DNA of 64,000 bases from Patagioenas fasciata (Eukaryota): contig NC_092556.1 of the NCBI RefSeq assembly GCF_037038585.1, forward strand, positions 514,619-578,618, read 5' to 3'. Position 1 is the first letter of the stretch. Every line of letters starts with the position of its first letter. A program made the position numbers and the translations under genes. The notes below the pieces were generated by a model that saw nothing but the letters and a program-made list of their open reading frames with translations, was not told the DNA's origin and made no database searches. This document shows positions 13,287-35,463 of the stretch, piece by piece.

Positions 13287-14745
13287 CTGCGCAAAGGGCG
13301 GGGTCAGCGGGGGCACGGGGGCACGGGGTCACAGGGGGTCATGGGGTCACAGGGGTCATGGGGTCATAGGGGGCGTGGGGGTCACAGGGGGTCATGGGGT
13401 CACAGGGGCTCACAGGGGGTCACAGGGGGTCAGGGGGTCACAGGGGGTCATGGGGTCATAGGGGGGCGTGGGGTCACAGGGGGCATGGGGTCATATGGGG
13501 TCACGGGGGTCATGGGGTCACAGGGGGTCACAGGGGGTCATGGGGTCACAGGGGGTCAGGGGGTCACAGGGGCTCACAGGGGGTGTGGGGTCACAGGGGG
13601 TCACAGGGGTCATGGGGTCACAGGGGGGCGTGGGGTCACAGGGGGTCATGAGGTCACAGGGGGTCACAGGGGGTCATGGGGGGCAGGGGTCACCGGGGTC
13701 ACGGGGTCAGGGGCTCACAGGGGGTCACAGGGGGTCACGGGGGGCAGGGGTCACACGGGTCATGGGGGCAGGGGGTCACAGGGGGTCATGGGGTCACAGG
13801 GGGTCAGGGGGTCACAGGGGGTCATGGGGTCACAGGGGGTCAGGGGGTCACAGGGGGTCACGGGGGGCAGGGGTCACAGGGGACATGGGGTCAAGGGGTC
13901 ACAGGGGGGCACGGGGTCACAGGGGGGCATGGGGTCATATGGGGTCACGGGGGTCATGGGGTCAGGGGGTCAAAGGGGGTCAGGGGATCACAGGGGTCAT
14001 GGGGTCATGGGGTCACAGGGGGGCGTGGGGTCACAGGGGGTCATGAGGTCACAGGGGGTCATGGGGTCACAGGGGGTCATGGGGTCACAGGGGGTCACAG
14101 GGGTCACGGTCAGGGGGTCACAGGGGGTCAGGGGGTCACAGGGGGGTGTGGGGTCACAGGGGGTCACAGGGGGTCATGGGGTCATAGGGGGGCACGGGGT
14201 CACATAGGGTCACAGGGGGTCATGGGGTCACAGGGTGTCAGGGGGTCACAGGGGGTCACCGGGGTCACGGGGTCAGGGGGTCACACCCACCCCACAGCCC
14301 CCCATGTCCTACCCCATTGTGCCCCACACCCACCCCATACCCACCCCATGTCCCCCCATGTCCCGCCCCACTGTGCCCCACACCCACCCCACACCCACCC
14401 CACAGCCCCCCATGTTCCGCCCCATTGTGCCCCACACCCGCCCCACACCCACCCCACAGCCCCCCATGTCCCGCCCCACTGTGCCCCACACCCACCCCAC
14501 ACCCACCCCACAGCCCCCCATGTCCCGCCCCACTGTGCCCCACATCTGCCCCACACCCACCCCATAGCCCCCCATGTCCCGCCCCATTGTGCCCCACACC
14601 CACCCCACAGCCCCCCATGTCCCCCCATGTCCCGCCCCACTGTGCCCCACATCTGCCCCACACCCACCCCATAGCCCCCCATGTCCCCCCATGTCCCGCC
14701 CCACCGTGCCCCACATCTGCCCCACACCCGCCCCACACCCACCTG

Positions 14746-14882
14746 GGGGGGCACGAAGCTGCTGGCCAGGGTGGCCCCGCCCCATAGGGCGCTGGCCCCA
14801 CAGAGCAGGAGCTTCCGGTTCCAGCGATCGCCCAGGAACCCGAAGAGGGGGGCGAGCAGGAGGTAACTGAGGATGAACACTG
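14746..14882 (-). CDS. SPNS1: SPNS1 exon 3
   Basis: Acceptor ccacggattctcag|TG, which lies inside the last unit of the adjacent 46-bp satellite. Encodes (V)FILSYLLLAPLFGFLGDRWNRKLLLCGASALWGGATLASSFVPPQ. Donor CCCCAG|gtgggt. Matches human [44 protein letters not shown]. Confidence 0.8.
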
Positions 14883-17300
14883 AGAATCCGTGGGTCAGAC
14901 CCACACGTGTGGGGCACGAACCCACCCAGCAGCCATGGGTCAGACCCACACGTGTGGGGCAGGAACCGACACTGAGAATCCATGGGTCAGACCCACACGT
15001 GTGGGGCACAAACCCACCCAGCAGCCATGGGTCAGACCCACACGTGTGGGGCAGGAACCCACCCAGCAGCCATGGGTCAGACCCACACGTGTGGGGCAGG
15101 AACCCACCCAGCAGCCATGGGTCAGACCCACACGTGTGGGGCAGGAACCCAAACCCAGCATCCATGGGTCAGACCCACACGTGTGGGGCAGGAACCCACC
15201 CAGCAGCCATGGGTCAGACCCACACGTGTGGGGCAGGAACCGACAGTGAGCAGCTATGGGTCAGACCCACACGTGTGGGGCAGGAACCCAAACCCAGCAT
15301 CTATGGGTCAGACCCACACGTGTGGGGCAGGAACCAACACTGAGAATCCATGGGTCAGACCCACACGTGTGGGGCAGGAACCCAAACCCAGCATCCATGG
15401 GTCAGACCCACACGTGTGGGGCAGGAACCCAAACCCAGCAGCCATGGGTCAGACCCACACGTGTGGGGCAGGAACCGACACTGAGAATCCATGGGTCAGA
15501 CCCACACGTGTGGGGCAGGAACCCAAACCCAGCATCCATGGGTCAGACCCACACGTGTGGGGCAGGAACCCACCCAGCATCTATGGGTCAGACCCACACA
15601 TGTGGGGCAGGAACCAACACTGAGAATCCATGGGTCAGACCCACACGTGTGGGGCAGGAACCCAAACCCAGCAGCCATGGGTCAGACCCACACGTGTGGG
15701 GCAGGAACCAACCCAGCAGCCATGGGTCAGACCCACACGTGTGGGGCAGGAACCCACCCAGCAGCCATGGGTCAGACCCACACGTGTGGGGCAGGAACCG
15801 ACAGTGAGCAGCTATGGGTCAGACCCACACGTGTGGGGCAGGAACCCAAACCCAGCATCCATGGGTCAGACCCACACGTGTGGGGCAGGAACCCAAACCC
15901 AGCATCCATGGGTCAGACCCACACGTGTGGGGCAGGAACCCAAACCCAGCAGCCATGGGTCAGACCCACACGTGTGGGGCAGGAACCGACACTGAGAATC
16001 CATGGGTCAGACCCACACGTGTGGGGCAGGAACCCAAACCCAGCATCCATGGGTCAGACCCACACGTGTGGGGCAGGAACCAACACTGAGAATCCATGGG
16101 TCAGACCCACACGTGTGGGGCACGAACCCACCCAGCAGCCATGGGTCAGACCCACACGTGTGGGGCAGGAACCCAAACCCAGCATCCATGGGTCAGACCC
16201 ACACGTGTGGGGCAGGAACCAAGACTGAGAATCCATGGGTCAGACCCACACGTGTGGGGCAGGAACCAACACTGAGAATCCATGGGTCAGACCCACACGT
16301 GTGGGGCAGGAACCGACACTGAGCAGCTATGGGTCAGACCCACACGTGTGGGGCAGCAACCCAAACCCAGCATCTATGGGTCAGACCCACACGTGTGGGG
16401 CAGGAACCCACCCAGCAGCCATGGGTCAGACCCACACGTGTGGGGCAGGAACCGACAGTGAGCAGCTATGGGTCAGACCCACACGTGTGGGGCAGGAACC
16501 CACCCAGCAGCCATGGGTCAGACCCACACGTGTGGGGCAGGAACCGACAGTGAGTAGCTATGGGTCAGACCCACACGTGTGGGGCAGGAACCCAAACCCA
16601 GCAGCCATGGGTCAGACCCACACGTGTGGGGCAGGAACCGACAGTGAGCAGCTATGGGTCAGACCCACACGTGTGGGGCAGGAACCCACCCAGCAGCCAT
16701 GGGTCAGACCCACACGTGTGGGGCAGGAACCCACCCAGCATCTATGGGTCAGACCCACACGTGTGGGGCAGGAACCCACCCAGCATCTATGGGTCAGACC
16801 CACACGTGTGGGGCAGGAACCGACAGTGAGCAGCTATGGGTCAGACCCACACGTGTGGGGCAGGAACCGACCCAGCAGCCATGGGTCAGACCCACACGTG
16901 TGGGGCAGGAACCCACCCAGCAGCCATGGGTCAGACCCACACATGTGGGGCAGGAACCAACACTGAGAATCCATGGGTCAGACCCACACGTGTGGGGCAG
17001 CAACCCAAACCCAGCATCTATGGGTCAGACCCACACATGTGGGGCAGGAACCAACACTGAGAATCCATGGGTCAGACCCACACGTGTGGGGCAGGAACCA
17101 ACCCAGCATCCATGGGTCAGACCCACACGTGTGGGGCAGGAACCAACACTGAGAGTGCGGGGGTCAGACCCACACGTGTGGGGCAGGAACCCACCCAGCA
17201 TCTATGGGTCAGACCCACACGTGTGGGGCAGGAACCCACCCAGCATCTATGGGTCAGACCCACACGTGTGGGGCAGGAACCAACACTGAGCAGCTACGGG
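14883..17300. repeat. 46-bp palindromic E-box satellite, ~52 copies (cccacacgtgtggggcaggaacccacccagcagccatgggtcagac), in SPNS1 intron 2
   Basis: Every unit contains the perfect 16-bp palindrome CCCCACACGTGTGGGG with a central CACGTG E-box. The array is followed at 17300-17620 by a related ~60-bp repeat carrying the same palindrome. Confidence 0.9.
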
Positions 17301-17619
17301 TCAGACCCACACGTGTGGGGCACTATGGGGCAGAGCTGTCTGCAGGAGCTCTATGGGGGTGATGTGTGGGTCAGCCCCACACGTGTGGGGCGCTATGGGG
17401 CAGAGCTGTCTGCAGGAGCTCTATGGGGGTGATGTGTGGGTCAGCCCCACACGTGTGGGGCGCTATGGGGCAGACCTGTCTGCAGGAGCTCTATGGGGGG
17501 GTGATGTGTGGGTCAGCCCCACACGTGTGGGGCGCTATGGGGCAGAGCTGTCTGCAGGAGCTCTATGGGGGGGTGATGTGTGGGTCAGCCCCACACGTGT
17601 GGGGCGCTATGGGGCAGAC

Positions 17620-17685
17620 CTGTCTGCAGGAGCCCGGATTTCCCGTCATCGATGCCGAAATAATCCTCAATATCCGGGAGAACAC
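17620..17685 (-). CDS. SPNS1: SPNS1 exon 2
   Basis: Acceptor gtctgtgccccccag|GT. Encodes (G)VLPDIEDYFGIDDGKSGLLQT(V). Donor CAGACAG|gtctgc (weak). Matches human GVLPDIEQFFNIGDSSSGLIQT. Confidence 0.8.
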
Positions 17686-18463
17686 CTGGGGGGCACAGAC
17701 CCATAAGTGACCCATAAGTGACCCATAAGTGACCCATAAGTGACCCATAAGTGACCCACAGCGACCCATAGAGACCCATAACCGACCAAAAATTGACCCA
17801 CAAGTGACCCATGAATCTCCCATAGTGACCCCCTGACCCATAAGTGACCCACAGCAACCCCCTAACTGACCCATAGTGACCCATAAGAGACCCATAGTGA
17901 CCCATAAGTAACCCAAAGTGACCCATAACTGACCCATAAGTGACCCATAAGTGACCCAAAGTGACCCATAGCAACCCCATAAGTGACACATAGCGACCCA
18001 TAAGTGACCCATAAGTGACCCAAAGTGACCCATAGCAACCCCATAACTGACCCATAGCAACCCCATAAGTGACCCATAGAGACCCATAAGTGACCCCATA
18101 GCAACCCCATAAGTGACCCATAGTGACCCATAAGTGACCCAAAGTGACCCCATAAGCGACCCATAAGTGACCCATAAGTGACCCATAACTGGCCCTTAGT
18201 GACCCATAAGTGACCTATAGAGACCCCCGTAACTGACCCATAGAGACCCATAAGTGACCCCGTTTTGCCCCCCCTGCCCCACATCTCCCCCCACATCTCC
18301 CCACACCCCGCCCCCCATCTGCCCCATATCTGCCCCACATCCCACCCCACATCTCCCCCATTCTCTCCCCATATCCCACCCCATTTACTCCCCACATCTC
18401 CCCACACCCCGCCCCACACCCCGACCCCCACATCTCCCCACATCCTGCCCCACATCTCCCCAC

Positions 18464-18659
18464 CAGCCAGTGTGAACCGGTCCATGTAGTTGAGCAGGTT
18501 GACGTAGCACAGCACGGCCAGCGTGCGCCGGGGCGCCGTGGGGCCGCTATGGGGCGCTGTGGGGCCGCTATGGGGCGCCGTGGGGCTGGGGGGGGCGCTG
18601 TGGGGCAGCCCCTCCCCCCCCGTGTCGTCCGCGCGGTGAAGGAGCGGCCCCGACGCCAT
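18464..18659 (-). CDS. SPNS1: SPNS1 exon 1 (start codon)
   Basis: ATG is the reverse complement of plus 18657-18659, in the context ccccATGG. Encodes MASGPLLHRADDTGGEGLPHSAPPSPTAPHSGPTAPHSGPTAPRRTLAVLCYVNLLNYMDRFTLA(G). Donor CTGGCTG|gtgggg. Matches human ...RSALIVAVLCYINLLNYMDRFTVAG. There is no in-frame stop upstream, so the start codon is inferred from homology and context. Confidence 0.7.
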
Positions 18660-19430
18660 GGGGCAGCCTGGGGGGAGACCCACAGGGACCACGGGGTGAC
18701 CCATAGGGACCCATAGGGACCCACAGAGTGACCCATAGGGACCATGGGGTGACCCATAGGGACCCATAGGGACCCATAGAGACCATGGAGTGACCCATAG
18801 GGACCATGGGGTGACCCACAGGGACCCATAGAGTGACCCATAGGGACCATGGGGTGACCCACAGGGACCCATAGAGTGACCCATAGGGACCATGGGGTGA
18901 CCCATAGGGACCCATAGGGACCCATAGGGACCATGGGGTGACCCATAGGGATACATAGGGACCCATAGAGTGACCCATAGGGACCATGGGGTGACCCATA
19001 GGGACCCATAGAGACCATGGAGTGACCCATAGGGACCCATAGAGTGACCCATAGGGACCATGGGGTGACCCATAGGGACCCATAAAGACCCACAGAGTTA
19101 CCCATAGGGACCCATAGGGACCCATAGAGTGACCCATAGGGACCATGGGGTGACCCACAGGGACACATAGGGACCCATAGGGACCCACAGAGTTACCCAT
19201 AGGGACCCATAGGGACCCATAGAGACCATAGAGACCCATAGGGACCATAGAGACCCACAGAGACCCATAGGGACCCATAGAGACCCATAGAGTGACCCAT
19301 AGAGACCGATAGAGACCCATAGAGACCCATAGAGTGACCCATAGAGACCGATAGAGACCCATAGAGACCCATAGAGTGACCCATAGAGACCCATAGAGAC
19401 CATAGAGACTCTAGAGACCCAAATTCCCCC
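18660..19430. repeat. Tandem satellite (gggacccatagggaccatggggtgacccatag family) between the SPNS1 start codon and the promoter
   Basis: Direct reading. It probably lies within the SPNS1 5'UTR or an intron, because promoter-like unique sequence only begins at ~19430. Confidence 0.8.
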
Positions 19431-19558
19431 CCCCTTCCCCCGCCCCTCCCCCCACCCCTCTCCCCCCCTCCTCTCCCCCATTTTTGCCCCAAACCCGCGG
19501 TTTTCACCCCAATTTTCCCCCTTTCCCGCCCTCACCGGCCGCCCCGGCCCAGCCGCGG

Positions 19559-19606
19559 CTCACGTGACCTCGCGCTCACGTGACCACCCCCCCTCCACAC
19601 GTGACC
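19559..19606. promoter_or_regulatory. Cluster of three CACGTG E-boxes (two are TCACGTGAC CLEAR-like motifs)
   Basis: gctCACGTGAcctcgcgctCACGTGAccaccccccctccaCACGTGAccgc. The lysosomal CLEAR consensus GTCACGTGAC is matched 9/10 by the first two. Confidence 0.55.
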
Positions 19607-19869
19607 GCCGCTTCCGAGAAGAAGCCGGAAGTGGCGTCCACTCCCCCCCCCCCCCCCCCGCCGCTTTACGAGAGAAATGGTGGCGATTTGGGGCCAAATT
19701 CGGGCCGTTCTGCCCCAAAATGCGACGGGGGGAGGGGAAACAATGGGGGAAATTGGCGGGAAATTCACCAGAGCTGCCTAAAAGAGCCCAAATGGGTCCC
19801 CCCCGAACTCCTGGGTCCGTCCCTCCCCCCGCCCCCCACCGCCGCCCCCGTCCATGGGGCGGGAGGAGG

Positions 19870-20200
19870 CGGGAGAACCAATGGGGGTGGAGGGGGCGGG
19901 GCGAGCGGCGCCTATGAGCCAATGGGAAGCGAGCGGGGGGGCGGGGGAAGCACCGGGGTCAACGGGGAGCGCGGCTGAGCCAATAGGAAGCGAGCGGGCG
20001 GGGCGAACCGCTCCGTGAACCAATGGGAAGCGAGTGGGCGGGGCGAGCTGGCTGTTTCACCGGGGAGCGAGTGGGCGGGGCTCGCGGCGCCGCTGAACCA
20101 ATGGGAACCGAGCGTGCGGGACGCGCGGCGCCCTGAGCCAATAGGGAGGGAGTAGGGGGGGGAGCGGCGGCGCTGAACCAATGGGGATGAAGCGGGGGGG
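19870..20200. repeat. Tandem ~45-60 bp promoter repeat, seven units of CCAAT box + GC box (gagCCAATgggaagcgagcGGGCGGGGCg)
   Basis: CCAATGGG or CCAATAGG occurs at ~19878, 19917, 19978, 20019, 20099, 20138 and 20178, each followed by gaagcgagcgggcggggcg-like sequence. The array lies immediately upstream of the INO80E ATG. Confidence 0.7.
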
Positions 20201-20238
20201 GCTCCCGGCACTTCCGTGAAGGAGCCGGAAGTGCGGCC

Positions 20239-20322
20239 ATGAACGGGGCGGGCGAGGTGGACGGCGGGGGCTACAAACGGCGCTACCGGGCCCTCAAGCG
20301 GCGCCTCAAGCTGCTGCTCTAC
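20239..20322 (+). CDS. INO80E: INO80E (INO80 complex subunit E) exon 1 (start codon)
   Basis: ATG at 20239. Encodes MNGAGEVDGGGYKRRYRALKRRLKLLLY. Donor CTCTAC|gtgagg. Matches human INO80E [27 protein letters not shown]. Confidence 0.85.
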
Positions 20323-20929
20323 GTGAGGGAAAGGGCGGGAAAGGGGGGGGAGGGGGGGCTTGGGGGAGGGGTGGGGGGGAACCCAGAGTGCGGGGGGGGA
20401 TGGGGGCATTGGGGGTTCTGACCCATAAGTGGAGCCATACGTGGCCCCATAGACCCATAAGTGGCCCCATAGATACATAAGTGGCCCCATAGATACATAA
20501 GTGGCCCCATAGACCCATAAGTGGCCCCATAGACTCATAAATGGACCCATAAGTGGCCCCATAGACCCATAAGTGGACCCATGGACCCATAAGTGGCCCC
20601 ATAAGTGGCCCCATAGACCCATAAGTGGACCCATGGACCCAGAACTGGACCCATAGACCCATAAATGGCCCCATAAGTGGATCTTTAGACCCAGAACCTA
20701 CCCCATAGACCCATAAGTGGCCCCATAAGTGGCCCCATAGACCCATAAATGGACCCTTAGACTCGTAAGTGGCCCCATAAGTGGCCCCATAAGTGGACCC
20801 TTAGGCCCATAAGTGGCCCCATAGACCCATAAGTGGCCCCATAAGTGGCCCCATAGACCCATAAATGGACCCATGGACCCATAAGTGGCCCCATAAGTGG
20901 CCCCATAGACCCAGAACTGGACCCATTGT

Positions 20930-22380
20930 GACTTTTGGGTCTGAAATTGGGGATTTTGGGGCCTAAAATGGGGATTTTTGGGCTTAAAATTGTGAATTTG
21001 GGGCCTGAAATTGGGGATTTTGGGGCCTAAAGTGGGGATTTTGGGTCCTAAAATTGTGACTTTGGGGCCTAAAATGGGGATTTTTGGGGCCTAAAATGGG
21101 GAATTTTGTGGCAAAATTGGGGATTTTGGGGCCTAAAATGGGGACTTTTGGGCCTAAAATGGGGAATTTGAGGCCTAAATTGGGTCTTTTTGGATCAAAT
21201 TTGGTGGCTTTTGGGTCAAAATTGGGCCTTTTTGGGTCTGAAATGGAGCATTTTGGGGCCTGGAATTGAGATTTTGGGGTGAAATTGGGGTTTTTGGGGT
21301 GAAATTGGGGTTTTGGGGGTGAAATTGGGGTTTTTGGGGGTGAAATTGGGGTTTTTTGGGGTGAAATTGGGGTTTTTGGGGGTGAAATTGGGGTTTTGGG
21401 GGGTGAAATTGGGGTTTTTTGGGCCTAAAATGGGGATTTTTGGGGTGAAATTGGGGTTTTTGGGGCCTAAAATGGGGATTTTTGGGGGTGAAATTGGGGT
21501 TTTTGGGGTGAAATTGGGGTTTTTGGGGTGAAATTGGGGATTTTGGGGGTGAAATTGGGGTTTTTGGGGGTGAAATTGGGGCTTTTTGGGCCTAAAATGG
21601 GGATTTTTGGGGTGAAATTGGGGTTTTTGGGGCCTAAAATGGGGATTTTTGGGGTGAAATTGGGGATTTTGGGGGTGAAATTGGGGTTTTTGGGGTGAAA
21701 TTGGGGATTTTGGGGTGAAATTGGGGATTTTTGGGGGTGAAATTGGGTTTTTTTGGGGTGAAATTGGGGATTTTGGGGGTGAAATTGGGGTTTTTGGGGG
21801 TGAAATTGGGGCTTTTTGGGCCTAAAATGGGGATTTTTGGGGTGAAATTGGGGTTTTTGGGGCCTAAAATGGGGATTTTTGGGGTGAAATTGGGGATTTT
21901 GGGGGTGAAATTGGGGTTTTTGGGGGTGAAATTGGGGATTTTTGGGGTGAAATTGGGGTTTTTTGGGGGTGAAATTGGGGTTTTTGGGGGTGAAATTGGG
22001 GATTTTTGGGGTGAAATTGGGGATTTTTGGGGGTGAAATTTGGGTTTTTTGGGGTGGAATTGGGGATTTTTGGGGTGAAATTGGGGTTTTTTGGGGGTGA
22101 AATTGGGGTTTTTGGGGGTGAAATTGGGGATTTTTGGGGTGAAATTGGGGATTTTTGGGGGTGAAATTTGGGTTTTTTGGGGTGAAATTGGGGTTTTTGG
22201 GGGTGAAATTGGGGCTTGTTGGGCCTAAAATGGGGATTTTTGGGGTGAAATTGGGGTTTTTTGGGGTGAAATTGGGGATTTTTGGGGGTGAAATTGGGGC
22301 TTGTTGGGCCTAAAATGGGGATTTTGGGGGTGAAATTGGGGTTTTTGGGGTCGTTTCTGGGCGTTTTTCCTCCCGTTTTG
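20930..22380. repeat. Tandem repeats (gggattttggggcctaaaatgggg / ggtgaaattggggtttttgggg family) in INO80E intron 1
   Basis: Direct reading. It is preceded at 20400-20930 by a ccataagtggccccatagaccc family. Confidence 0.85.
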
Positions 22381-22409
22381 CCCAAAATCGCCGTTTTTCG
22401 CCCCGAAAG

Positions 22410-22480
22410 GAGCAGGAATGCTTCCAGGACGAGCTCCGCAGGGCCCAGCGCAAACTGCTCAAGGTCTCGCGCGACAAAAG
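22410..22480 (+). CDS. INO80E: INO80E exon 2
   Basis: Acceptor gccgtttttcgccccgaaag|GAG. Encodes [23 protein letters not shown](S). Donor AAAAG|gtcccg (weak). Matches human [24 protein letters not shown]. Confidence 0.8.
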
Positions 22481-23162
22481 GTCCCGAAACCCCAGAAAAT
22501 CAGCCCAAAATGCACCCGCCCCGCACTCCTGGGTCCCCTGGGGCACTCCTGGGTCCCTTGGGGCACTCCTGGGTCCCCCCCGAACTCCTGGGTCCCTCCC
22601 CGAACTCCTGGGTCCCTCCCGAACTCCTGGGTCCCTCCCCGAACTCCTGGGTCCCTCCCGAACTCCTGGGTCCCTCAGAACTCCTGGGTCCCTTGGGGCA
22701 CTCCTGGGTCCCTCCCCGCACTCCTGGGTCCCTTGGGGCACTCCTGGGTCCCTCCCAAACTCCTGGGTCCCTCCCCGAACTCCTGGGTCCCTCCCCAAAC
22801 TCCTGGGTCCCTCCCGAACTCCTGGGTCCCTCCCCGAACTCCTGGGTCCCCCCCCGAACTCCTGGGTCCCCCCCGAACTCCTGGGTCCCTTGGGGCACTC
22901 CTGGGTCCCTCCCGAACTCCTGGGTCCCTCCCCGAACTCCTGGGTCCCTCCTGAACTCCTGGGTCCCTCCCGCACTCCTGGGTCCCTCCCGAACTCCTGG
23001 GTCCCCCCCGAACTCCTGGGTCCCCTGGGGCACTCCTGGGTCCCTCCCGAACTCCTGTGTCCCCCCCGAACTCCTGGGTCCCTCCCCGAACTCCTGGGTC
23101 CCTCCCGAACTCCTGGGTCCCTCCCGGACGCCTGGGTCCCTCACACCCCCTTTCCCCCCCAG

Positions 23163-23215
23163 TTATTTGCTGGACCGGTTGCTGCTCTATGAGAACGTGG
23201 ATGACGAGACCACAG
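23163..23215 (+). CDS. INO80E: INO80E exon 3
   Basis: Acceptor ccctttcccccccag|T. Encodes (S)YLLDRLLLYENVDDETT(G). Donor CACAG|gtaagg. Matches human SFLLDRLLQYENVDEDSS. Confidence 0.85.
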
Positions 23216-23835
23216 GTAAGGGGGAGGGGGGGCACTTATGGGGCTGGGGGGGGCACTTGGGGGTCACTATGGGGCAGCTATGGGGCACTTATGGGTCAGT
23301 TTGGGGTCACTATGGGGAAGTTGGGGTTCAACGTGGGGCACTGGGGGGGTCCCTATGGGGCAATTTGGGGTCGATTTCAGGCACTTATGGGGCTGGGGGG
23401 GACTTGGGGGTCGCTATGGGTCGCTATGGGGCAGTTATGGGTCAGTTTGGGGCCAATATGGGGAAGTTGGGGGTTAATATGGGGCACTGGGGGGGTCACT
23501 ATGAGGCAGCTATGGGTGGATTTCAGGCACTTATGGGGCTGGGGGGGACTTGGGGGTCGCTATGGGGCAGTTATGGGGCATTTTGGGGCCACTTGGGGGT
23601 CACTATGGGGAAGTGGGGGGGGTCGCTATGGGGCAATTTGGGGTCAATTTCAGGCACTTATGGGGCTGGGGGGCACTTGGGGTTCACTATGGGGCAGATA
23701 TGGGTCACTATGGGGCAGTTATGGGTCAATTGGGGGTCACCGTGGGGCAGTTGTGGGGCTGGGGAAGACACTTGTGGGTCGCTGTGGGTCACGGGGGGTT
23801 GGTCATTGGGTCCCCATTGGCTCCTCCCCCCATAG

Positions 23836-23902
23836 ATTCGGAGGCCACGGCGACGTCCGACAGCGACGGGGACGGGAACAAGGGCAGCGACGGCGGGAAG
23901 AG
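23836..23902 (+). CDS. INO80E: INO80E exon 4
   Basis: Acceptor ctcctccccccatag|AT. Encodes (D)SEATATSDSDGDGNKGSDGGK(R). Donor GAAGAG|gtgggg. Matches human DSDATASSDNSETEGTPK... Confidence 0.75.
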
Positions 23903-23904
23903 GT

Positions 23905-24600
23905 GGGGGCGGGGCCAAGATGGCCGCTGCCAGCATCCAAGATGGCTGCCGGGGGTGTGGGAGGGGTTCCAAGATGGCCGCCAGGGTTCAACATGGCCGC
24001 CCCCAGCATCCAATATGGCTGCCAAAGTCATGGGTGGGGTTCCAATATGGCCGCCAGCATCCAATATGGCCGCCCTCAGCATCCAATATGGCTGCCGGGG
24101 TGGTGGGTGGGGCTCCAATATGGCCACCCCCAACATCCAATATGGCCGCTGGGGTCATGGGAGGGGTTCCAAGATGGCCGCCATCATCCAATATGGCCGC
24201 CTTCAGTATCCAATATGGCCGCCAAGGTCATGGGCGGGGTTTCAAGATGGCTGCCAGAATCCAATATGGCCGTCTCTAGTATCCAATATGGCCGCCAGGG
24301 TCATGGGCCGGGTTTCAATATGGCTGCCATCATCCAATATGGCCGCCTTCAGTATCCAATATGGCCGCCAAGGTCATGGGCGGGGTTCCAATATGGCCGC
24401 CTCGAGTATCCAATATGGCCGCCAGAGTGGTGGGCGGGGCTCCAAGATGGCCGCCAGAATCCAATATGGCCGCCCTCAGTATCCAATATGGCTGCCGGGG
24501 TCATGGGCGGGGTTCCAATATGGCCACCAGAATCCAATATGGCCGCCCTCAGTATCCAATATGGCCGCCAGGGTGGTGGGCGTGGCTCCAAGATGGCCCC
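23905..24600. repeat. Tandem ~90-bp repeat carrying ~24 copies of a YY1-like motif CCAA(G/T)ATGGC(C/T)GCC, in INO80E intron 4
   Basis: Repeated strings include tccaagatggccgcc, tccaatatggccgcc and ttcaacatggccgcc. The YY1 core is AAnATGGCG, and this motif matches it in every position except the final base. Confidence 0.8.
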
Positions 24601-24633
24601 GCCCCCCCCGACCCCGCCCATTTCCCCCCACAG

Positions 24634-24691
24634 GAAGCGCAGCCCCTCCCCCCCCACATCTGCCTTCCAGGCCCCGCCCACTCCATATATG
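24634..24691 (+). CDS. INO80E: INO80E exon 5
   Basis: Acceptor ccatttccccccacag|G. Encodes (R)KRSPSPPTSAFQAPPTPYM. Donor TATATG|gtgagt. Matches human KRKRSPPLGGAPSPSSLSLPP... Confidence 0.75.
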
Positions 24692-25376
24692 GTGAGTGAT
24701 TGTGGCCCCACCCCCTTGTACCCCCCGACCAATTGCAGCTTGGGGGCGTGGCCTGGACCCCTTCCCCCTCCCATTTCCCATGCGGCTCCGCCCCCTTTAC
24801 CCCCAACCAATCCCAATGAGGGGGCGTGGCGTGGACCCCCTTCCCCCTCCCATTTCCCATGCGGCTCCGCCCCCTTTACCCCCAACCAATCCCAATGAGG
24901 GGGCGTGGCCTGCACCCCCTTCCCCCTCCCATTTCCCATGCGGCTCCGCCCCCTTTACCCCCAACCAATCCCAGCGAGGGGGCGTGGCCTGGACCCCCTT
25001 CCCCCTCCCATTTCCCATGCGGCTCCGCCCCCTTTACCCCCAACCAATCCCAGCAAGGGGGTGTGGCCTGCACCCCCTTCCCCCCCATTCCCCTGCAGCT
25101 CCGCCCCCTTTACCCCCCAACCAATCCCAGCAAGGGGGCGTGGCCTGGACCCTCTTCCCCCTCCCATTTCCCATGTGGCTCCGCCCCATTTACCCCCCAA
25201 CCAATCCCAGCAAGGGGGGTGTGGTCTGGACCCTCCCCATTCCCATGTGACTCCGCCCCCTTTACCCCCAACCAATCCCAGCTCAGGGGGGCGTGGTCTC
25301 CCCCCCACCCTCTCCATCCAATGGGAGCTGGGGGGCGTGTCCTCTGCTGACCCCACCCCCCCCATGCCCTTTCCAG

Positions 25377-25502
25377 GTGACCACGCCCCCCTTCAGCCCA
25401 TTGCCCAATGAGCTGCTGGCCCCGCCCGACGGGCCTCGCCCCCCCAGGCCCCGCCCCCCCGGCCCCGCCCGGCGCAGCCGAAGCTCCAACAGGCGCCTGC
25501 AG
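25377..25502 (+). CDS. INO80E: INO80E exon 6
   Basis: Acceptor ccatgccctttccag|GTG. Encodes VTTPPFSPLPNELLAPPDGPRPPRPRPPGPARRSRSSNRRLQ. Donor CTGCAG|gtccgg. Matches human ...[33 protein letters not shown]. Confidence 0.7.
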
Positions 25503-26554
25503 GTCCGGGGGGCGCTATGGGGCGCTATGGGGTGCTATGGGGCACTATGGGGTGCTATGGGGCGCTATGGGGCGCTATGGGGTGCTATGGGGCGCTATGG
25601 GGCGGTGTGGGGCACAGGGGGGCTGGGGTCCTCTATGGGGCCAGGGGGCACTTGGGGGGCTGGGGGGGGGGTCAATATGTGGGGTTGGGGGGGAGTTATG
25701 GGGCACTTGGGGGTCGATGTGTGGGGCTCGGGGGTCTGGGAGGGTCACTTGTGGGTCACTTATGGGTCAGTGTGTGGGTCTGGGGGGTCACTTATGGGTC
25801 TGGGAGGGTCACTTGTGGGTCACTTATGGGTCAATGTGTGGGTCGGGGGTCACTTATGGGTCTGGAGGGTCACTTATGGGTCACTTATGGGTCAACGTGT
25901 GGGTCTGGGGGGGGGGTCACTTATGGGTCTGGGAGGGTCACTTGTGGGTCACTTATGGGTCAATGTGTGGGTTTGTGGTCACTTATGGGTCTGGGAGGGT
26001 CACTTATGGGTCAACGTGTGGGTCTGGGGGGGTCACTTATGGGTCAATGTGTGGGTCCATGGGATCACTTATGGGTCTGGGAGGGTCAGTTATGGGTCTG
26101 AGAGGGTCACTTGTGGGTCAATGTGTGGGTCGGGGGTCACTTATGGGTCAAGGTGTGGGTCTGGGGGGTCTGGGAGGGTCACTTATGGGTCACTTATGGG
26201 TCAGTGTGTGGGTCGGGGGTCACTTATGGGTCTGGGAGGGTCACTTATGGGTCACTTATGGGTCAATGTGTGGGTCTGGGGTCACTTATGGGTCAATGTG
26301 TGGGTCTGGGGTCACTTATGGGTCAACGTGTGGGTCTGGGGGGGTCACTTGCGGGTGAATGTGTGGGTCGGGGATCACTTATGGGTCACCTATGGGTCGA
26401 CGTGTGGGTCTGGGGGGGTCACTTATGGGTCAATGTGTGGGTCTATGGTCACTTACGGGTCCCTTATGTCCCCCCAGCCCCCCCCCGCGCCCCCGTTCCC
26501 CCTCCCCCCGGCCCCTCCCCCGCTGCCCGGTGCCCTCCCCCGGCGGCTGCTGAG

Positions 26555-26644
26555 CCGAGGGGGGGGGAGGGGCCGGGGGGGGAGGGGAGCGGGGACGACG
26601 CCCTGGACGGGGACGACGAGCTGGTGATTGACATCCCCGAGTGA
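26555..26644 (+). CDS. INO80E: INO80E terminal coding segment (conserved C-terminus, stop TGA 26642-26644); 5' boundary ambiguous
   Basis: Encodes PRGGEGPGGEGSGDDALDGDDELVIDIPE*, matching the human C-terminus SGDDALDGDDDLVIDIPE. With acceptor gctgctgag|CCG (AG at 26553-26554) this segment is in frame with exon 6. The stronger acceptor cccttatgtccccccag| at 26476-26477 would instead start the exon at 26478, 2 nt out of frame with this C-terminus. Confidence 0.5.
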   Translation, partial: PRGGEGPGGEGSGDDALDGDDELVIDIPE

Positions 26645-32183: not shown

Positions 32184-32349
32184 CTTTGCTGCAGAGCTCG
32201 CAGTGGTGCGGGGCCGCGTGCCCCTTGACGTGGTCGCCGACGTAGGCGGCGCTGAGCAGTTTCCCGCACACGTGGCACGGGACCTTCTCCTCGTGCCGCA
32301 CGGCGTGGGCGCGCAGCCGGTCCTTGGTGGCGAACGCCGCCTCGCACGT
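32184..32349 (-). CDS. MAZ: MAZ zinc-finger exon (ZF5-ZF6 region)
   Basis: Acceptor ccccccatgtgcag|ACG. Encodes TCEAAFATKDRLRAHAVRHEEKVPCHVCGKLLSAAYVGDHVKGHAAPHHCELCSK(G). Donor CAAAG|gtggga. Matches human KCEAAFATKDRLRAHTVRHEEKVPCHVCGKMLSSAYISDHMKVHSQGPHHVCELCNKG. Confidence 0.85.
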
Positions 32350-35300
32350 CTGCACATGGGGGGCAATGTGTGGGGCGATGTGTGGGGCAGGGTGTGGGGG
32401 GCACACGGTGCGAAAATGGGGGAGATCGGGGCAGAAACGGCCGAGATTTGGGGCCAATTTGGTGCCGATTTGGGGTGTGAAATGACACCAAAAATGGGGA
32501 TGTGGGGCGGGATCTATGGGGCAGGGTGTGGGGCGCAATGTGGGGGGTGTGGGGTGCGAAAATGGGGGAGATCAGGGAAGAAATGGGGGGGATTTGGGGG
32601 CATTTTGGGGTGGGAAATGGGTGGGAAATGGGTGATGAACTGGGATCTATGGGGCGGGATGTGGGGTGGGATGTGGGGCGCAATGTGGGGGGTGTGGGGT
32701 GCAAAAATGGGGGAGATCGGGGGAGAAATGGGGGGGATTTGGGGCCATTTTGGGGTGGTTTTGGATGCGATTTGGGGTGGGAAATGGGTGGGAAATGGGT
32801 GATGAAGTGGGATCTATGGGGCAGGATGTGGGGCGGGATCTATGGGGCAGTTGGAGTGAAAATGGGGCCAATTGGGGGAGAAATGGGGGGGATTTGGGGG
32901 CGATTTGGGGTGGGAAATGGGTGGGAAATGGGTGATGAAGTGGGATCTATGGGGCAGGATCTATGGGGCAGGGTGTGGGGCGCAATGTGGGGGGTGTGGG
33001 GTGCAAAAATGGGGGAGATCGGGGGAGAAATGGGGGGGATTTGGGGCCATTTTGGGGTGGTTTTGGGTGCGATTTGGGGTGGGAAATGGGTGGGAAATGG
33101 GTGGGAAGGTGGGGATCTATGGGGCAGGATCTATGGGGCTGGGTGTGGGGGGTGTGGGGTGAGAAAATGGGGGCGATTGGGGGAGAAATGGGGGGGATTT
33201 GGGGGCAATTTGGGGTGGGAAATGGGTGGGAAATGGGTGGGAAGGTGGGGATCTATGGGGCAGAGATGTGGGGCAGGGTGTGGGGCGCAATGTGGGGGGT
33301 GTGGGGTGAGAAAATGGGGGAGATCGGGGGAGAAATGGGGGGGATTTGGGGGCATTTTGGGGTGGGAAATGGGTGGGAAATGGGTGGGAAATGGGTGATG
33401 AAGTGGGGTCTATGGGGCAGGATCTATGGGGCTGGGTGTGGGGGGTGTGGGGTGAGAAAATGGGGGCGATCAGGGGAGAAATGGGGGGGATTTGGGCCCA
33501 TTTTGGGGTGGTTTTGGATGCGATTTGGGGTGGGAAATGGGTGGGAAATGGGTGATGAAGTGGGATCTATGGGGCACAATCTATGGGGCTGGGCATGGGG
33601 GGCACACGGTGAGAAAATGGGGGCGATTGGGGGAGAAATGGGGGAGATTTGGGGGCAATTTGGGGTGGGAAATGGGTGGGAAATGGGTGATGAAGTGGGA
33701 TCTATGGGGCGGGATGTGGGGCGGGATCTATGGGGTGGGATCTATGGGGCAGTTGGAGTGAAAATGGGGCCGATTGGGGGAGAAATGGGGGGGATTTGGG
33801 GCCATTTTGGGGTGGTTTTGGGTGCGATTTGGGGTGGGAAATGGGTGGGAAACTGGGGATCTATGGGGCAAGATGTGGGGCAGGATCTATGGGGTGGAGC
33901 TATGGGGCAGAGCTATGGGGCACAGGGAGCAAAATGGGCTCATTTTGGGGCAAAATGGGCTCATTTGGGGGCAATTTGGGCTCATTTTGGGGCGGGATTT
34001 TGACGTCGCGGGCAGGATCTATGGGGTGGGATCTATGGGGCGGAGCTATGGGGCGGATCTATGGGGCACAGAGAGCAATATGGGCTCATTTTGGGGCAAT
34101 TTGGGCTCATTTTGGGGCGTTTTGGGCTCATTTTGGGGCGTTTTGGGGCGGGATTTTGACGTCGCGGGCAGGATCTATGGGGCGGGATCTATGGGGCGGA
34201 TCTATGGGGCGGATCTATGGGGCAGAGGGAGCAATATGGGCTCATTTTGGGGCAAAATGGGCTCATTTTGGGGCGTTTTGGGGCGGGATTTTGACGTCGC
34301 GGGCAGGATCTATGGGGCGGGATCTATGGGGCGGATCTATGGGGCGGATCTATGGGGCAGAGGGAGCAATATGGGCTCATTTTGGGTCAATTTGGGCTTA
34401 TTTGGGGGCAATTTGGGCTCATTTTGGGGCGGGATTTTGACGTCGCGGGCAGGATCTATGGGGCAGGATCTATGGGGCGGATCTATGGGGCCGATCTATG
34501 GGGCAGAGGAAGCAATATGGGCTCATTTTGGGGCAATTTGGGCTTATTTGGGGGCAATTTGGGCTCATTTTGGGGCGGGATTTTGACGTCGCGGGCAGGA
34601 TCTATGGGGCGGGATCTATGGGGCGGATCTATGGGGCGGATCTATGGGGCAGAGGAAGCAATATGGGCTCATTTTGGGGCAATTTGGGCTCATTTGGGGG
34701 CAATTTGGGCTCATTTTGGGGCGGGATTTTGACGTCGCGGGTAGGATCTATGGGGCGGGATCTATGGGGCGGAGCTATGGGGCGGATCTATGGGGCACAG
34801 AGAGCAATATGGGCTCATTTTGGGTCAATTTGGGCTTATTTGGGGGCAATTTGGGCTCATTTTGGGGCGGGATTTTGACGTCGCGGGCAGGATCTATGGG
34901 GCGGGATCTATGGGGCAGGATCTATGGGGCAGAGGGAGCAAAATGGGCTCATTTTGGGGCAATTTGGGCTCATTTTGGGGCGTTTTGGGGCGGGATTTTG
35001 ACGTCGCGGGCAGGATCTATGGGGCGGGATCTATGGGGCAGATCTATGGGGCCGATCTATGGGGCAGAGGGAGCAATATGGGCTCATTTTGGGGCAAAAT
35101 GGGCTCATTTGGGGGCAATTTGGGCTCATTTTGGGGCGGGATTTTGACGTCGCGGGCAGGATCTATGGGGCGGATCTATGGGGCGGAGCTATGGGGCGGA
35201 TCTATGGGGCACAGAGAGCAATATGGGCTCGTTTTGGGGCAATTTGGGCTCATTTTGGGGCGTTTTGGGGCGGGATTTTGACGTCGCGGGCAGGATCTAT

Positions 35301-35441: not shown

Positions 35442-35463
35442 CTGCGGGGGAGGGGAGAGGGCG

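What the first reader, a model, noticed from the sequence alone, without database searches (positions are those of the whole stretch)
23905..24600. Tandem array of ~24 YY1-like sites in INO80E intron 4
The repeat CCAA(G/T)ATGGC(C/T)GCC matches the YY1 core AAnATGGCG at every position but the final base. It occurs ~24 times in 700 bp as a ~90-bp higher-order unit with three sites per unit. INO80E encodes a subunit of the INO80 chromatin remodeller, and YY1 is a known INO80-associated factor. An intronic YY1-site array in an INO80 subunit gene is therefore a curious possible feedback element. It could equally be a coincidental satellite.
Basis: inference. Interest (0 to 1): 0.55.

Follow-up and report, generated by a model that had tools for sequence, protein, structure and literature searches.

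The report
Conserved YY1-type site array in INO80E
An intron of a bird chromatin-remodeller gene (INO80E) is almost entirely filled by 28 same-direction copies of a motif matching the binding site of YY1, a known partner of that remodeller; the same motif is repeated in the same intron in four other birds from distant orders, so it is unlikely to be a chance satellite, though YY1 binding is untested.

Summary
The array is real. There are 28 same-strand CAAnATGGC sites at 23916-24589, in a 73-bp higher-order unit (not ~90 bp) with three sites spaced 19/22/32 bp. They fill 95% of INO80E intron 4 (23903-24633).

The window is 90% tandem repeat and every INO80E intron holds its own minisatellite. 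This matches the published "sequence stuttering" of avian dot-chromosome introns, which explains how the array was built.

The motif is not a private satellite. The orthologous intron 4 carries sense-strand arrays of it in little owl (29 sites), hawfinch (15-18), downy woodpecker (5-6) and king quail (9-10). Duck has one degenerate copy. Crane, tinamou, alligator and turtle have none. Periods and most spacer sequence differ between species. Other introns share no locus-specific repeats.

Within the window, motif columns vary 4% against 19% for spacers. All 28 sites pass a published YY1 matrix. The G variant (CCAAGATGGCCG) is identical to the standard YY1 gel-shift probe, so the GCC ending does not refute YY1 binding.

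Best reading (about 0.5): an old intronic GC-box plus YY1-type site module, amplified by stuttering and kept under constraint, acting as a YY1 docking array in the INO80E gene. Binding and feedback remain untested. The main rival is neutral stuttering of an inherited motif.

The parts
20239..26644 (+). INO80E coding region. Exons are 20239-20322, 22410-22480, 23163-23215, 23836-23902, 24634-24691 and 25377-25502. The last exon ends at the stop codon at 26644. Its acceptor is unresolved.
   Evidence: Pfam PF24237, E = 1e-22. Bird INO80E orthologues. Splice sites read directly from the sequence.
23836..23902 (+). INO80E exon 4 (DSEATATSDSDGDGNKGSDGGKR), ending ...GGGAAGAG|gt.
23903..24633 (+). 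INO80E intron 4, 731 bp with GT..AG ends. About 95% of it is the array. The 3' end (24601-24633) is a C-rich polypyrimidine tract.
23905..23914 (+). GC-box-like G run (GGGGGCGGGG) directly after the 5' splice site, followed by the first motif copy. This is the apparent source module of the repeat. A related G-rich element (GGGCGGGG or GGGCGTGG) recurs once per 73-bp unit.
   Evidence: A GC-box-like element is present at the start of intron 4 in all birds examined.
23907..24600 (+). Tandem array with a 73-bp higher-order unit. Each unit is three YY1-type sites (TCCAAnATGGCCGCC) spaced 19/22/32 bp plus one G-rich spacer. There are about 9.5 units.
   Evidence: Tandem Repeats Finder; site list and spacings; unit classes.
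23916..24597 (+). 28 CAAnATGGC sites. Their starts are 23916, 23938, 23970, 23989, 24011, 24043, 24062, 24084, 24116, 24138, 24170, 24189, 24211, 24243, 24262, 24284, 24316, 24335, 24357, 24389, 24411, 24443, 24462, 24484, 24516, 24535, 24557 and 24589.
   Evidence: All exceed the published YY1 matrix cut-off (minimum 8.64, median 9.04). 26 of them score at least 12 bits.
24634..24691 (+). INO80E exon 5 (KRSPSPPTSAFQAPPTPYM).

Best explanation
The array is a lineage-conserved cluster of YY1-type DNA binding sites. It was built by local tandem amplification of the 5' end of INO80E intron 4.

Step 1 (shown by comparison, ancestral state inferred). The short ancestral neognath intron 4, about 85-100 bp and roughly 0.7-1 kb from the gene start, carried a GC-box followed by one CAAnATGGCCGCC site. 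Duck still has this single-unit form. King quail has amplified almost the whole intron.

Step 2 (structure shown, process inferred from the literature). 'Sequence stuttering', meaning slippage or unequal exchange typical of avian dot-chromosome introns, multiplied the module to 5-30 sites.

Step 3 (shown statistically). The motif has been kept while spacers, periods and copy number drifted. The positions that vary are ones the YY1 matrix tolerates.

Step 4 (inferred, untested). YY1 occupies the sites on DNA. YY1 is a partner of the INO80 complex, of which INO80E is a subunit. The array would then act as an intragenic regulatory platform coupling INO80E transcription to YY1/INO80 availability. 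The precedents are the YY1-site cluster in YY1's own first intron and the intronic YY1 tandem array of the Peg3 differentially methylated region (Peg3-DMR).
For: Reality and density:
- 19 exact 14-mers against 0.01 expected.
- 28 core sites, all on one strand.
- Of 35 sites in the 64-kb window scoring at least 12 bits with the published matrix, 26 lie in this 0.7-kb array.

YY1 compatibility:
- All 28 sites exceed the 8.0 cut-off of the Faulk & Kim matrix (PMC2791781 supplement).
- CCAAGATGGCCG equals the standard YY1 gel-shift consensus probe (PMC4763200).
- The GCCAT core and the TT that published mutagenesis shows to be critical (PMC11602158; PMC2743690) are intact in 28 of 28 sites.

Conservation:
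- Sense-strand arrays of the same motif occur in the orthologous intron 4 of Athene noctua (29 sites), Coccothraustes (15-18), Dryobates (5-6) and Excalfactoria (9-10).
- Anas has one degenerate copy.
- In owl, woodpecker and hawfinch the neighbouring introns examined (2, 3 and 5 in owl; 2 and 3 in woodpecker; 3 in hawfinch) are only 79-100 bp, so the expansion there is specific to intron 4.
- Repeated 9-12-mers shared between species are found only in intron 4, where all are motif-derived, apart from one dispersed satellite family in intron 6.
- Consensus sites differ between species only at the n position (T, G or C) and at the base after ATGGC (C, T or G). These are low-information positions of YY1 matrices.

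Within-array constraint:
- In the window, motif columns deviate 4.0% from consensus against 19.0% for spacer columns (Fisher p = 6e-10).
- In hawfinch the core 9-mer occurs 11 times against at most 5 for any spacer 9-mer.

Orientation independence:
- King quail intron 5 carries about 40 antisense GCCGCCATCTTGG / GGCAGCCATCTTGG sites. This argues for a DNA-level rather than a sense-RNA-level reader.

Literature:
- Intronic stuttering on dot chromosomes (PMC12954441).
- YY1 intron-1 cluster with conserved sites and non-conserved spacers (PMC2743690).
- Peg3-DMR intronic tandem YY1 sites (PMC4196374).
- INO80E stabilises YY1 protein (PMC13510582).
Against: - No binding or expression data exist here.
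- The majority variant in the window has T at the n position (AATATGG). This is the least frequent base there in the published matrix (15%) and, from my unverified memory of JASPAR MA0095.2, about 4%. It costs about 0.9-3.5 bits.
- The strict AAnATGGCG consensus is never met.
- Crane has lost the motif, and tinamou, alligator and turtle lack it. It is therefore dispensable and restricted to neognath birds.
- The window is 90% tandem repeat, and other arrays also carry transcription-factor-like strings (CCAAT, GC and CACCC boxes). One other array, at 43.7-47.3 kb, gives weaker YY1 matrix hits, so motif-bearing arrays arise readily here.
- Lower variation in motif columns could partly reflect homogenisation among three times as many templates.
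- The commonest site variants are CpG transitions (CCGCC to CTGCC or CCACC). This hints at germline methylation, which might block binding.
Confidence: 0.5

Rival explanations
1. Neutral by-product. Dot-chromosome 'sequence stuttering' amplified whatever lay at the 5' end of the ancestral intron. The resemblance to a YY1 site is inherited but functionless, and the copies are simply too young or too homogenised to have decayed.
For: - 89.8% of the window is tandem repeat, and all six INO80E introns are filled by different minisatellites.
- The phenomenon is described for chicken dot chromosomes, with units of local origin that sometimes include exon borders (PMC12954441).
- The king quail unit copies the exon-4 end and the donor site.
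- The window spacer AGAG|TGGTGGGCGGGGCT CCAAGATGG is a copy of the exon-4/intron-4 junction.
- Woodpecker and quail intron-4 arrays are homogeneous, so probably recent.
- Crane lost the motif with no obvious consequence.
Against: - The motif is the only element shared by arrays in Galliformes and at least four neoavian lineages, while other introns share nothing locus-specific.
- In owl, woodpecker and hawfinch intron 4 is expanded next to short flanking introns of 79-100 bp.
- Motif columns vary 4% against 19% for spacers.
- 28 of 28 cores are intact, whereas about 5 would be expected if cores varied like spacers (derived).
- The A/T positions of the motif persist in a GC-rich setting.
- A second, antisense array of better-consensus sites exists in quail intron 5.
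- Re-copying from the constrained exon end cannot explain the conservation. The window exon ends GGGAAGAG and the galloanserine exons end CTTAAAAG, unlike their motifs.
Confidence: 0.3
2. RNA-level element. The sense-strand repeats, together with the G runs of the spacers, act in the pre-mRNA as intronic splicing enhancers or protein-binding sites that help define a GC-rich intron.
For: - All intron-4 arrays in five species are in the sense orientation.
- The first copy lies 12-32 nt from the 5' splice site in four neoavian species.
- The spacers carry G triplets. G triplets are known intronic enhancers in short GC-rich introns (my own knowledge).
Against: - King quail intron 5 has about 40 copies in the antisense orientation.
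- The pattern of conserved and free positions mirrors the YY1 DNA matrix.
- I know of no RNA-binding protein with this motif.
- No Rfam family matches the window.
- A uniform orientation is the automatic result of tandem duplication.
Confidence: 0.07
3. A different DNA reader. One option is NF-Y in the window species, because the T variant creates CCAAT pentamers. Another is that each unit (GC box, then CCAAT or YY1 initiator-like site) is a cryptic internal promoter.
For: - 20 of 28 window sites read CCAAT.
- Tinamou has a canonical inverted CCAAT box (CTGATTGGCCGCC) at the corresponding place.
- The real promoter regions in the window are themselves arrays of CCAAT plus GC boxes.
- GC box plus YY1 initiator is a known minimal promoter design (my own knowledge).
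Against: - The orthologous arrays read CCAAG, TCAAG or CCAAC, not CCAAT, so NF-Y cannot be the conserved reader.
- The bases after the pentamer (CCAATAT) differ from the CCAAT boxes of this window's promoter-like regions (CCAATGG, CCAATAG or CCAATCA).
- CCAATATGG is one A/T short of an SRF CArG box.
- There is no transcript evidence for an internal start. The open reading frames through the array are explained by a stop-free unit, which has about a 12% chance by my own rough estimate from base composition, not run as a tool call (ORF list).
Confidence: 0.1

Closest known systems
Peg3-DMR (differentially methylated region) intronic tandem array of YY1 sites, in mammals (PMC4196374)
   Same: It is a tandem-repeat structure inside an intron in which one small motif per repeat is a YY1 site (GGCGCCATCTT). 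About 10 sites are present in any species. The motif is retained while the repeats evolve.
   Different: Peg3 is an imprinting control region in the first intron next to a bidirectional promoter, and its sites carry a CpG inside the core (CGCCAT), which makes binding methylation-sensitive. Here the host is a bird, which has no imprinting. The array is in intron 4, the core is GGCCAT with the CpG offset, there are 28 sites in 0.7 kb, and binding is untested.
YY1 autoregulatory cluster in intron 1 of the YY1 gene (PMC2743690)
   Same: It is a cluster of YY1 sites in an intron of a gene of the YY1 pathway. The sites are conserved, while neither the spacer sequence nor the spacer length is. It is proposed to act as a homeostatic feedback, which is the circuit logic proposed here.
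   Different: It has 5 sites in 100 bp, in mixed orientation, is conserved across all vertebrates, and has been validated by ChIP and reporter assays. Here there are 5-30 same-orientation sites, restricted to neognath birds and unvalidated. The gene encodes a YY1 partner, not YY1 itself.
Sequence stuttering of avian dot-chromosome introns (PMC12954441)
   Same: It is a massive local expansion of short intronic sequence into imperfect tandem repeats. The units originate next to exon borders, and introns are up to 93% repeat. This accounts for how the array arose and why every intron in the window is a minisatellite.
   Different: Stuttering is described in chicken as recent, polymorphic and without sequence preference. 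The intron-4 motif array is shared across bird orders, and its motif is more conserved than its spacers.
LINE-1 5'UTR YY1 sites, including the tandem monomers of the mouse Tf subfamily (PMC11602158)
   Same: These are tandemly repeated units that each carry one YY1 site (GTCGCCATCTTG). The sites act synergistically in transcription. From my own memory, the human L1 site is CAAGATGGCCG, the same GGCCAT form as here.
   Different: Those are promoters of a mobile element with roughly 200-bp monomers. Here the array is a fixed single-copy locus inside a host gene, and the units are 19-32 bp.
YY1 sites in the intron of the human UBC gene (PMC3680475)
   Same: They are intronic YY1 sites needed for full expression of the host gene (intron-mediated enhancement).
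   Different: There are only a few sites, in a 5'-UTR intron, and they are not a tandem array.

Membership tests
YY1 binding site | The GCCAT core is intact. Single changes to GCCTT or GCCAC abolish binding (PMC11602158). | tested here: met
   28 of 28 sites contain ATGGC on the + strand.
YY1 binding site | nTT follows the core (GCCATnTT; PMC2743690, PMC11602158). | tested here: met
   28 of 28 sites read AAnATGGC. The n base is T in 20, G in 7 and C in 1.
YY1 binding site | The score exceeds a published matrix cut-off (Faulk & Kim 2009, more than 8.0 of a possible 9.77). | tested here: met
   All 28 sites pass, with minimum 8.64 and median 9.04. The cut-off is permissive, with 393 hits in the whole window. 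In log-odds form, 26 of the 35 window sites scoring at least 12 bits are in the array.
YY1 binding site | The strict classical 9-mer AAnATGGCG (CGCCATnTT) is present. | tested here: not met
   0 of 28 sites match, because the last base is C or T. The standard YY1 gel-shift probe also has C there (GCCAAGATGGCCGG), so this feature is not required for binding.
YY1 binding site | YY1 protein physically binds the site (gel shift or ChIP). | not testable with these tools
   No binding data are available.
Clustered or tandem intronic YY1-site arrays (Peg3-DMR / YY1 intron-1 type) | Many sites lie in a short intronic interval as part of a tandem repeat. | tested here: met
   28 sites in 694 bp, with a 73-bp unit.
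Clustered or tandem intronic YY1-site arrays (Peg3-DMR / YY1 intron-1 type) | The sites are conserved between species, while spacer sequence and length are not. | tested here: met
   Five bird species carry the arrays, with periods of 73, 57/116, 31, 43 and 88 bp. Partial spacer homology is seen only among the neoavian species.
Clustered or tandem intronic YY1-site arrays (Peg3-DMR / YY1 intron-1 type) | The cluster lies in the first intron, next to the promoter. | tested here: not met
   It lies in intron 4, 3.7 kb from the start codon in the window. The distance is about 0.7-1.1 kb in the compact orthologues.
Clustered or tandem intronic YY1-site arrays (Peg3-DMR / YY1 intron-1 type) | YY1 occupancy and an effect on transcription or methylation have been demonstrated. 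| not testable with these tools
   None available.
Dot-chromosome intronic sequence stuttering | The intron is largely replaced by an imperfect tandem repeat with a unit of tens of bases. | tested here: met
   95% of intron 4 is array. The window is 89.8% repeat by Tandem Repeats Finder.
Dot-chromosome intronic sequence stuttering | The unit originates locally, at or next to the exon border. | tested here: met
   The first copy starts 13 nt after the donor site. The window spacer copies ...AGAG|GTGGGGGCGGGG. The quail unit includes the exon end and the donor.
Dot-chromosome intronic sequence stuttering | The expansion is recent and length-polymorphic within a species. | not testable with these tools
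   Only a single haplotype is available. The cross-order sharing of the motif array argues that this one is old.
SRF CArG box | CC(A/T)6GG | tested here: not met
   CCAATATGG has only five A/T bases between CC and GG.
NF-Y CCAAT box | The CCAAT pentamer is conserved at the site. | tested here: not met
   It is present in 20 of 28 window sites. The orthologous arrays read CCAAG, TCAAG or CCAAC instead.

The most novel reading that the evidence does not exclude
Neognath birds maintain, under selection, a multi-copy YY1 docking array inside the gene for INO80E, a subunit of the INO80 complex, with which YY1 functions. This would form a transcriptional feedback between YY1 and its remodeller. The recurrent architecture of three sites per 72-73 bp (half a nucleosome length), with spacings near 2 and 3 helical turns, is seen in the window's intron 4 and, with the motif inverted, in king quail intron 5. 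That would reflect a structural requirement of cooperative YY1/INO80 binding rather than shared descent.
Probability: 0.25. Interest if true: 0.75.

Novelty: new member of a known kind. Interest (0 to 1): 0.55.

Why it matters
If the sites bind YY1, this would be a natural case in which a transcription factor's sites are massively amplified inside the gene of one of its own complex partners. It would be a bird counterpart to the YY1 intron-1 autoregulatory cluster and the Peg3 array, and a ready-made system for studying dosage coupling between YY1 and INO80.

It would also show that the repeat expansions ('stuttering') of avian dot-chromosome introns are not all neutral noise. Some may carry or multiply regulatory motifs that stay recognisable for tens of millions of years.

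If the array proves neutral, it is a useful caution. In this genome compartment, inherited motifs can be copied into impressive-looking binding-site arrays.

Tried and rejected
- **Coding or alternative-start reading.** The array is open in two frames, one in frame with exon 4 and one with exon 5. A stop-free 73-bp unit at this GC content has about a 12% chance by my own rough estimate, and no protein evidence exists. Rejected.
- **Known RNA family.** There are no Rfam matches at gathering score anywhere in the window.
- **SRF CArG box.** The site is one A/T short. Rejected.
- **NF-Y as the conserved reader.** Rejected because the orthologues lack CCAAT.
- **Conserved only because it is repeatedly re-copied from the constrained exon-4 end (GCCAAGAG|GT).** The first 7-8 nt do match in woodpecker, hawfinch and tinamou. 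They do not match in the window (GGGAAGAG) or in quail and duck (CTTAAAAG), whose motifs are nevertheless CCAAnATGG. Rejected as an explanation for the conservation, kept as a possible deep origin.
- **The additive Faulk & Kim cut-off of 8.0.** It is too permissive in this ATGG/CCAT-rich window (393 hits). I converted the same published matrix to log-odds instead.
- **JASPAR MA0095.2.** I used this matrix from memory only. It is unverified and nothing rests on it alone.
- **Helical phasing of spacings.** The distribution peaks at 21-22 and 32-34 bp in several arrays, but classes of 18-19 and 24 bp also occur. It is not tight enough to claim.
- **Orthologue look-ups.** Three were lost because only the longest isoform is indexed.
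- **Species of the window.** Not identified. The protein groups with Neoaves, and no close relative is in the protein collection.
- **Two key YY1 papers.** Kim & Kim 2009 and Kim et al. 2006 are not held in the library.
Full report
**1. What is there**

The region 23907-24600 is a tandem array.
- The exact 14-mer CCAAKATGGCYGCC occurs 19 times in the 64-kb window, all inside the array and all on the + strand, against 0.01 expected from shuffles.
- The core CAAnATGG occurs 28 times between 23916 and 24589.
- Successive distances cycle 19, 22, 32. This makes a 73-bp higher-order unit with three sites, with occasional 54-bp units of two sites.
The '~90 bp' is not.
- The n position is T in 20 sites, G in 7 and C in 1.
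- The strict 9-mer AAnATGGCG never occurs in the array.

**2. Gene context**

Translating the non-repeat islands gives INO80E on the + strand (Pfam PF24237, E = 1e-22; bird INO80E orthologues as best hits).
- The coding exons are 20239-20322, 22410-22480, 23163-23215, 23836-23902, 24634-24691 and 25377-25502, plus a last exon ending at 26644.
- The array fills 95% of intron 4 (23903-24633).
- It begins 4 nt after the donor GT and ends 33 nt before the acceptor.
- The 3' gene model is not fully resolved. The obvious acceptor at 26478 is out of frame with my exon 6.

**3. Base rate**

The window is extraordinary. Tandem Repeats Finder covers 89.8% of it, in about 41 large arrays with different units, and each of the six INO80E introns is filled by its own minisatellite.

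This matches 'sequence stuttering', recently described for chicken dot-chromosome genes. It consists of massive local expansions of short intronic sequence, often starting at exon borders, with introns up to 93% repeat (PMC12954441).

An intronic array here is therefore ordinary in form. The window spacer ...CCAGAG TGGTGGGCGGGGCT CCAAGATGG... is a copy of the exon-4/intron-4 junction ...GAAGAG|GTGGGGGCGGGGC CAAGATGG.... The unit thus arose locally from the first about 30 nt of the intron.

**4. Is the motif YY1-like by a real matrix?**

I recovered a published YY1 matrix and scoring script (Faulk & Kim 2009, PMC2791781 supplement).
- All 28 sites exceed its cut-off of 8.0 (minimum 8.64, median 9.04, maximum possible 9.77).
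- That cut-off is loose in this ATGG-rich window, which has 393 hits overall.
- In log-odds form the major site AATATGGCCG scores 12.3 bits, the G variant 13.1, and the consensus 15.1.
- Of the 35 sites in the window scoring at least 12 bits, 26 are in this 0.7-kb array.

- The standard YY1 consensus gel-shift probe is ...GCCAAGATGGCCGG... (PMC4763200). It is identical to the window's G variant over CCAAGATGGCCG.
- Published mutagenesis shows that the critical bases are the GCCAT core and the following TT (PMC11602158; PMC2743690). Both are intact in 28 of 28 sites.
- The weak point is the T at the n position in 20 sites. It is the least frequent base there in the published matrix.

**5. Comparison with other species (the decisive part)**

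I fetched the INO80E locus from nine species and mapped the exons.

| Species | Intron 4 length | Sense AAnATGGC sites | Other introns |
|---|---|---|---|
| Window species | 731 bp | 28 | 0 |
| Little owl (Athene noctua) | 943 bp | 29 | 0 |
| Hawfinch (Coccothraustes) | 658 bp | 15 (18 by matrix) | 0 |
| Downy woodpecker (Dryobates) | 291 bp | 5, plus one decayed copy | 0 |
| King quail (Excalfactoria) | 805 bp | 9-10 | intron 5: 3 sense (9 by matrix) and about 40 antisense sites |
| Duck (Anas) | 85 bp | one degenerate copy (CCAACATGGTGCC), after a GC box | 0 |
| Crane (Grus) | 102 bp | 0 | 0 |
| Tinamou (Eudromia) | 92 bp | 0 (has CTGATTGGCCGCC, an inverted CCAAT box, one nucleotide out of register) | intron 5: 1 |
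| Alligator | 257 bp | 0 | introns 5 and 6: 3 scattered |
| Turtle (Carettochelys) | 363 bp | 0 (57-bp repeat with CCACGGCCGCC) | 0 |

- In owl, woodpecker and hawfinch the neighbouring introns examined (2, 3 and 5 in owl; 2 and 3 in woodpecker; 3 in hawfinch) are only 79-100 bp. There the intron-4 expansion is not part of a general swelling.
- The array periods differ: 73, 57/116, 31, 43 and 88 bp.
- The owl array ends in an exact consensus, CCCAAGATGGCGGCGGCC.

**6. Controls**

- Repeated 9-12-mers shared between species are found only in intron 4, where all are pieces of the motif. The one exception is in intron 6 between the window and the owl.
- That exception is GGGTCACTTATGGG, a dispersed satellite family. 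It also occurs elsewhere in the window on both strands. The YY1-type motif occurs nowhere else in the window.
- Site matrices anchored only on ATGG give the same consensus in all five species: C-A-A-n-A-T-G-G-C-n-G-C-C. The differences lie only at n (T, G or C) and at the base after ATGGC (C, T or G). These are low-information positions of the YY1 matrices.
- The second of those positions is also a CpG transition hotspot, with CCGCC changing to CTGCC seven times and to CCACC twice.
- Within the window array, motif columns deviate 4.0% from consensus and spacer columns 19.0% (Fisher p = 6e-10).
- In the older-looking hawfinch array the core 9-mer occurs 11 times, and no spacer 9-mer more than 5.

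**7. Age and origin**

- Unit alignments show partial spacer homology among the four neoavian arrays (TGGGYGGGGT upstream, CAGAA or TCATGG downstream). An array already existed before these lineages split.
- The window species groups with Neoaves by protein sequence, but has no close relative in the collection.
- The king quail unit is different. It is nearly the whole ancestral intron, including a copy of the exon-4 end and the donor site, and so is an independent amplification.
- The ancestral neognath intron therefore probably read: donor, GC box, one CAAnATGGCCGCC, pyrimidine tract, acceptor. Duck still has this form.
- The first 7-8 nt of the motif (GCCAAGA) equal the end of exon 4 in woodpecker, hawfinch and tinamou. 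The site may itself have begun as a stuttered copy of the exon border.
- Ongoing re-copying cannot explain the conservation. The window exon ends GGGAAGAG and the galloanserine exons end CTTAAAAG.

**8. Mechanism**

*Shown*
- A locally derived tandem array of YY1-grade motifs.
- The motif is conserved across at least five bird lineages in the same intron.
- The motif evolves more slowly than the spacers.
- King quail intron 5 holds a second array of about 40 better-consensus sites (GCCGCCATCTTGG) in the antisense orientation. This favours a reader of double-stranded DNA over a reader of the sense RNA.

*Inferred*
- YY1 binds the sites.
- Because YY1 works with the INO80 complex (Cai et al. 2007, cited by 77 library papers), and INO80E is reported to stabilise YY1 (PMC13510582), the array couples INO80E transcription to YY1/INO80 levels.

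The closest precedents are the YY1-site cluster in YY1's own first intron, whose sites are conserved while its spacers are not and which is shown to be autoregulatory (PMC2743690), and the intronic tandem YY1 sites of the Peg3-DMR (PMC4196374).

No paper in the library links YY1 motifs to dot-chromosome repeats or to the INO80E gene structure.

**9. Rivals**

- *Neutral stuttering of an inherited motif* is the serious rival, at about 0.3. The compartment makes arrays of anything. Other arrays in the window carry CCAAT, GC and CACCC boxes. A second array at 43.7-47.3 kb gives weaker YY1 hits. Crane lost the motif.
- *An RNA-level splicing element* is less likely.
- *A different reader*, such as NF-Y in the window species or a cryptic promoter, is also less likely.
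- See the rival entries for the evidence on each.

**10. Verdict**

- The YY1-like reading is supported by a published matrix, by identity to the standard gel-shift probe, and above all by conservation across bird orders.
- The feedback idea is plausible but untested.
- I file it as a new member of a known kind, intronic tandem clusters of YY1-type sites, built by the known stuttering process.
- Interest is moderate (0.55). It would be clearly higher if ChIP shows occupancy.

Noticed in passing
window 1-64000: Tandem Repeats Finder covers 89.8% of the window, in about 41 large arrays with different units. The non-repeat islands of 60-600 bp are mostly exons or promoters. Each of the six INO80E introns is a different minisatellite. 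This fits the 'sequence stuttering' described for chicken dot chromosomes, but the window species looks neoavian, not chicken.
   Followed up: partly
L003 (Excalfactoria chinensis) 10851-12076, INO80E intron 5: About 40 antisense sites (GCCGCCATCTTGG / GGCAGCCATCTTGG, the exact YY1 consensus on the other strand) form a 72-bp unit with three sites spaced 18/21/33 bp. This is nearly the mirror image of the window's 73-bp unit (19/22/32 bp). The G-rich spacer (ATGGGGGGCGG) keeps the same strand, so it is not a simple inversion. Unexplained.
   Followed up: partly
L003 9965-10769, INO80E intron 4 of king quail: The roughly 88-bp repeat unit contains a copy of the last ~18 nt of exon 4 plus the donor site (CCTCACCTTAAAAG|GTAAT). 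There are therefore nine decoy 5' splice sites in the intron, a clear case of exon-border stuttering outside chicken.
   Followed up: partly
window 43665-47311 (- strand sites): A second, weaker cluster of YY1-matrix hits lies in a ~200/404-bp repeat (GGGGCCATTTTGGGTCATTTTGGG). AAAATGGCCC scores 10.7 bits, at about 10 sites per kb. It is flanked by single exact AAAATGGCG sites at 43586, 43600, 47284 (-) and 42413, 47379 (+) in promoter-like islands.
   Followed up: partly
window 20084-20201 and 42636-43431: Promoter-like sequences are themselves tandem arrays. A 40-bp unit with a CCAAT box plus a GC box lies directly upstream of INO80E exon 1. A 105-bp unit with GAAGCCACGCCCC (CACCC box) plus CCATTGG lies at 42.6-43.4 kb.
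   Followed up: no
window 32187-38856 (-), 14744-14876 (-), 53949-55945 (-): Other genes are present. MAZ-like zinc-finger exons lie on the minus strand downstream of INO80E, the same order as in crane L001. There is also an exon resembling SPNS1, and exons resembling proline dehydrogenase. These identifications were made by eye from translations and were not searched.
   Followed up: no
window 16000-26500; L005 4927-5329; L002 4724-4961: A dispersed repeat family built on CACTTATGGG / GGGTCACTTATGGGTC occurs in several window arrays on both strands. It also occurs in intron 6 of the owl and downstream of intron 4 in the woodpecker. It appears to be a satellite motif shared across bird orders.
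   Followed up: partly
L008 (Eudromia elegans) intron 4; L007 (Carettochelys) intron 4: Tinamou has CTGATTGGCCGCC, a canonical inverted CCAAT box, where neognaths have CAAGATGGCCGCC. The two differ by one nucleotide of register. The turtle intron is a 57-bp tandem repeat containing CCACGGCCGCC. The GGCCGCC half may therefore be older than birds.
   Followed up: no
window 25502-26644: The 3' end of the INO80E model is unresolved. The strong acceptor at 26476-26477 (exon start 26478) is out of frame with the exon 6 that ends at 25502. An in-frame model needs the weaker acceptor before 26555, or a different exon-6 donor.
   Followed up: no
L003 3054 and 3185; L004 about 81 nt upstream of the exon-1 anchor: In quail and duck, but not in the four neoavian loci, consensus YY1 sites also sit just upstream of INO80E exon 1. 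Quail has ACCAAGATGGCGGCGG and CGGAAGATGGCCGCCA. Duck has CCCAACATGGCGGCTC in the antisense orientation.
   Followed up: partly
intron-4 arrays of window, L005, L006; L003 intron 5: Site-to-site distances pile up at 21-22 bp and 31-34 bp, about 2 and 3 helical turns. The woodpecker spacing is 43 bp. Classes of 18-19 and 24 bp also occur, so the phasing is suggestive only.
   Followed up: partly
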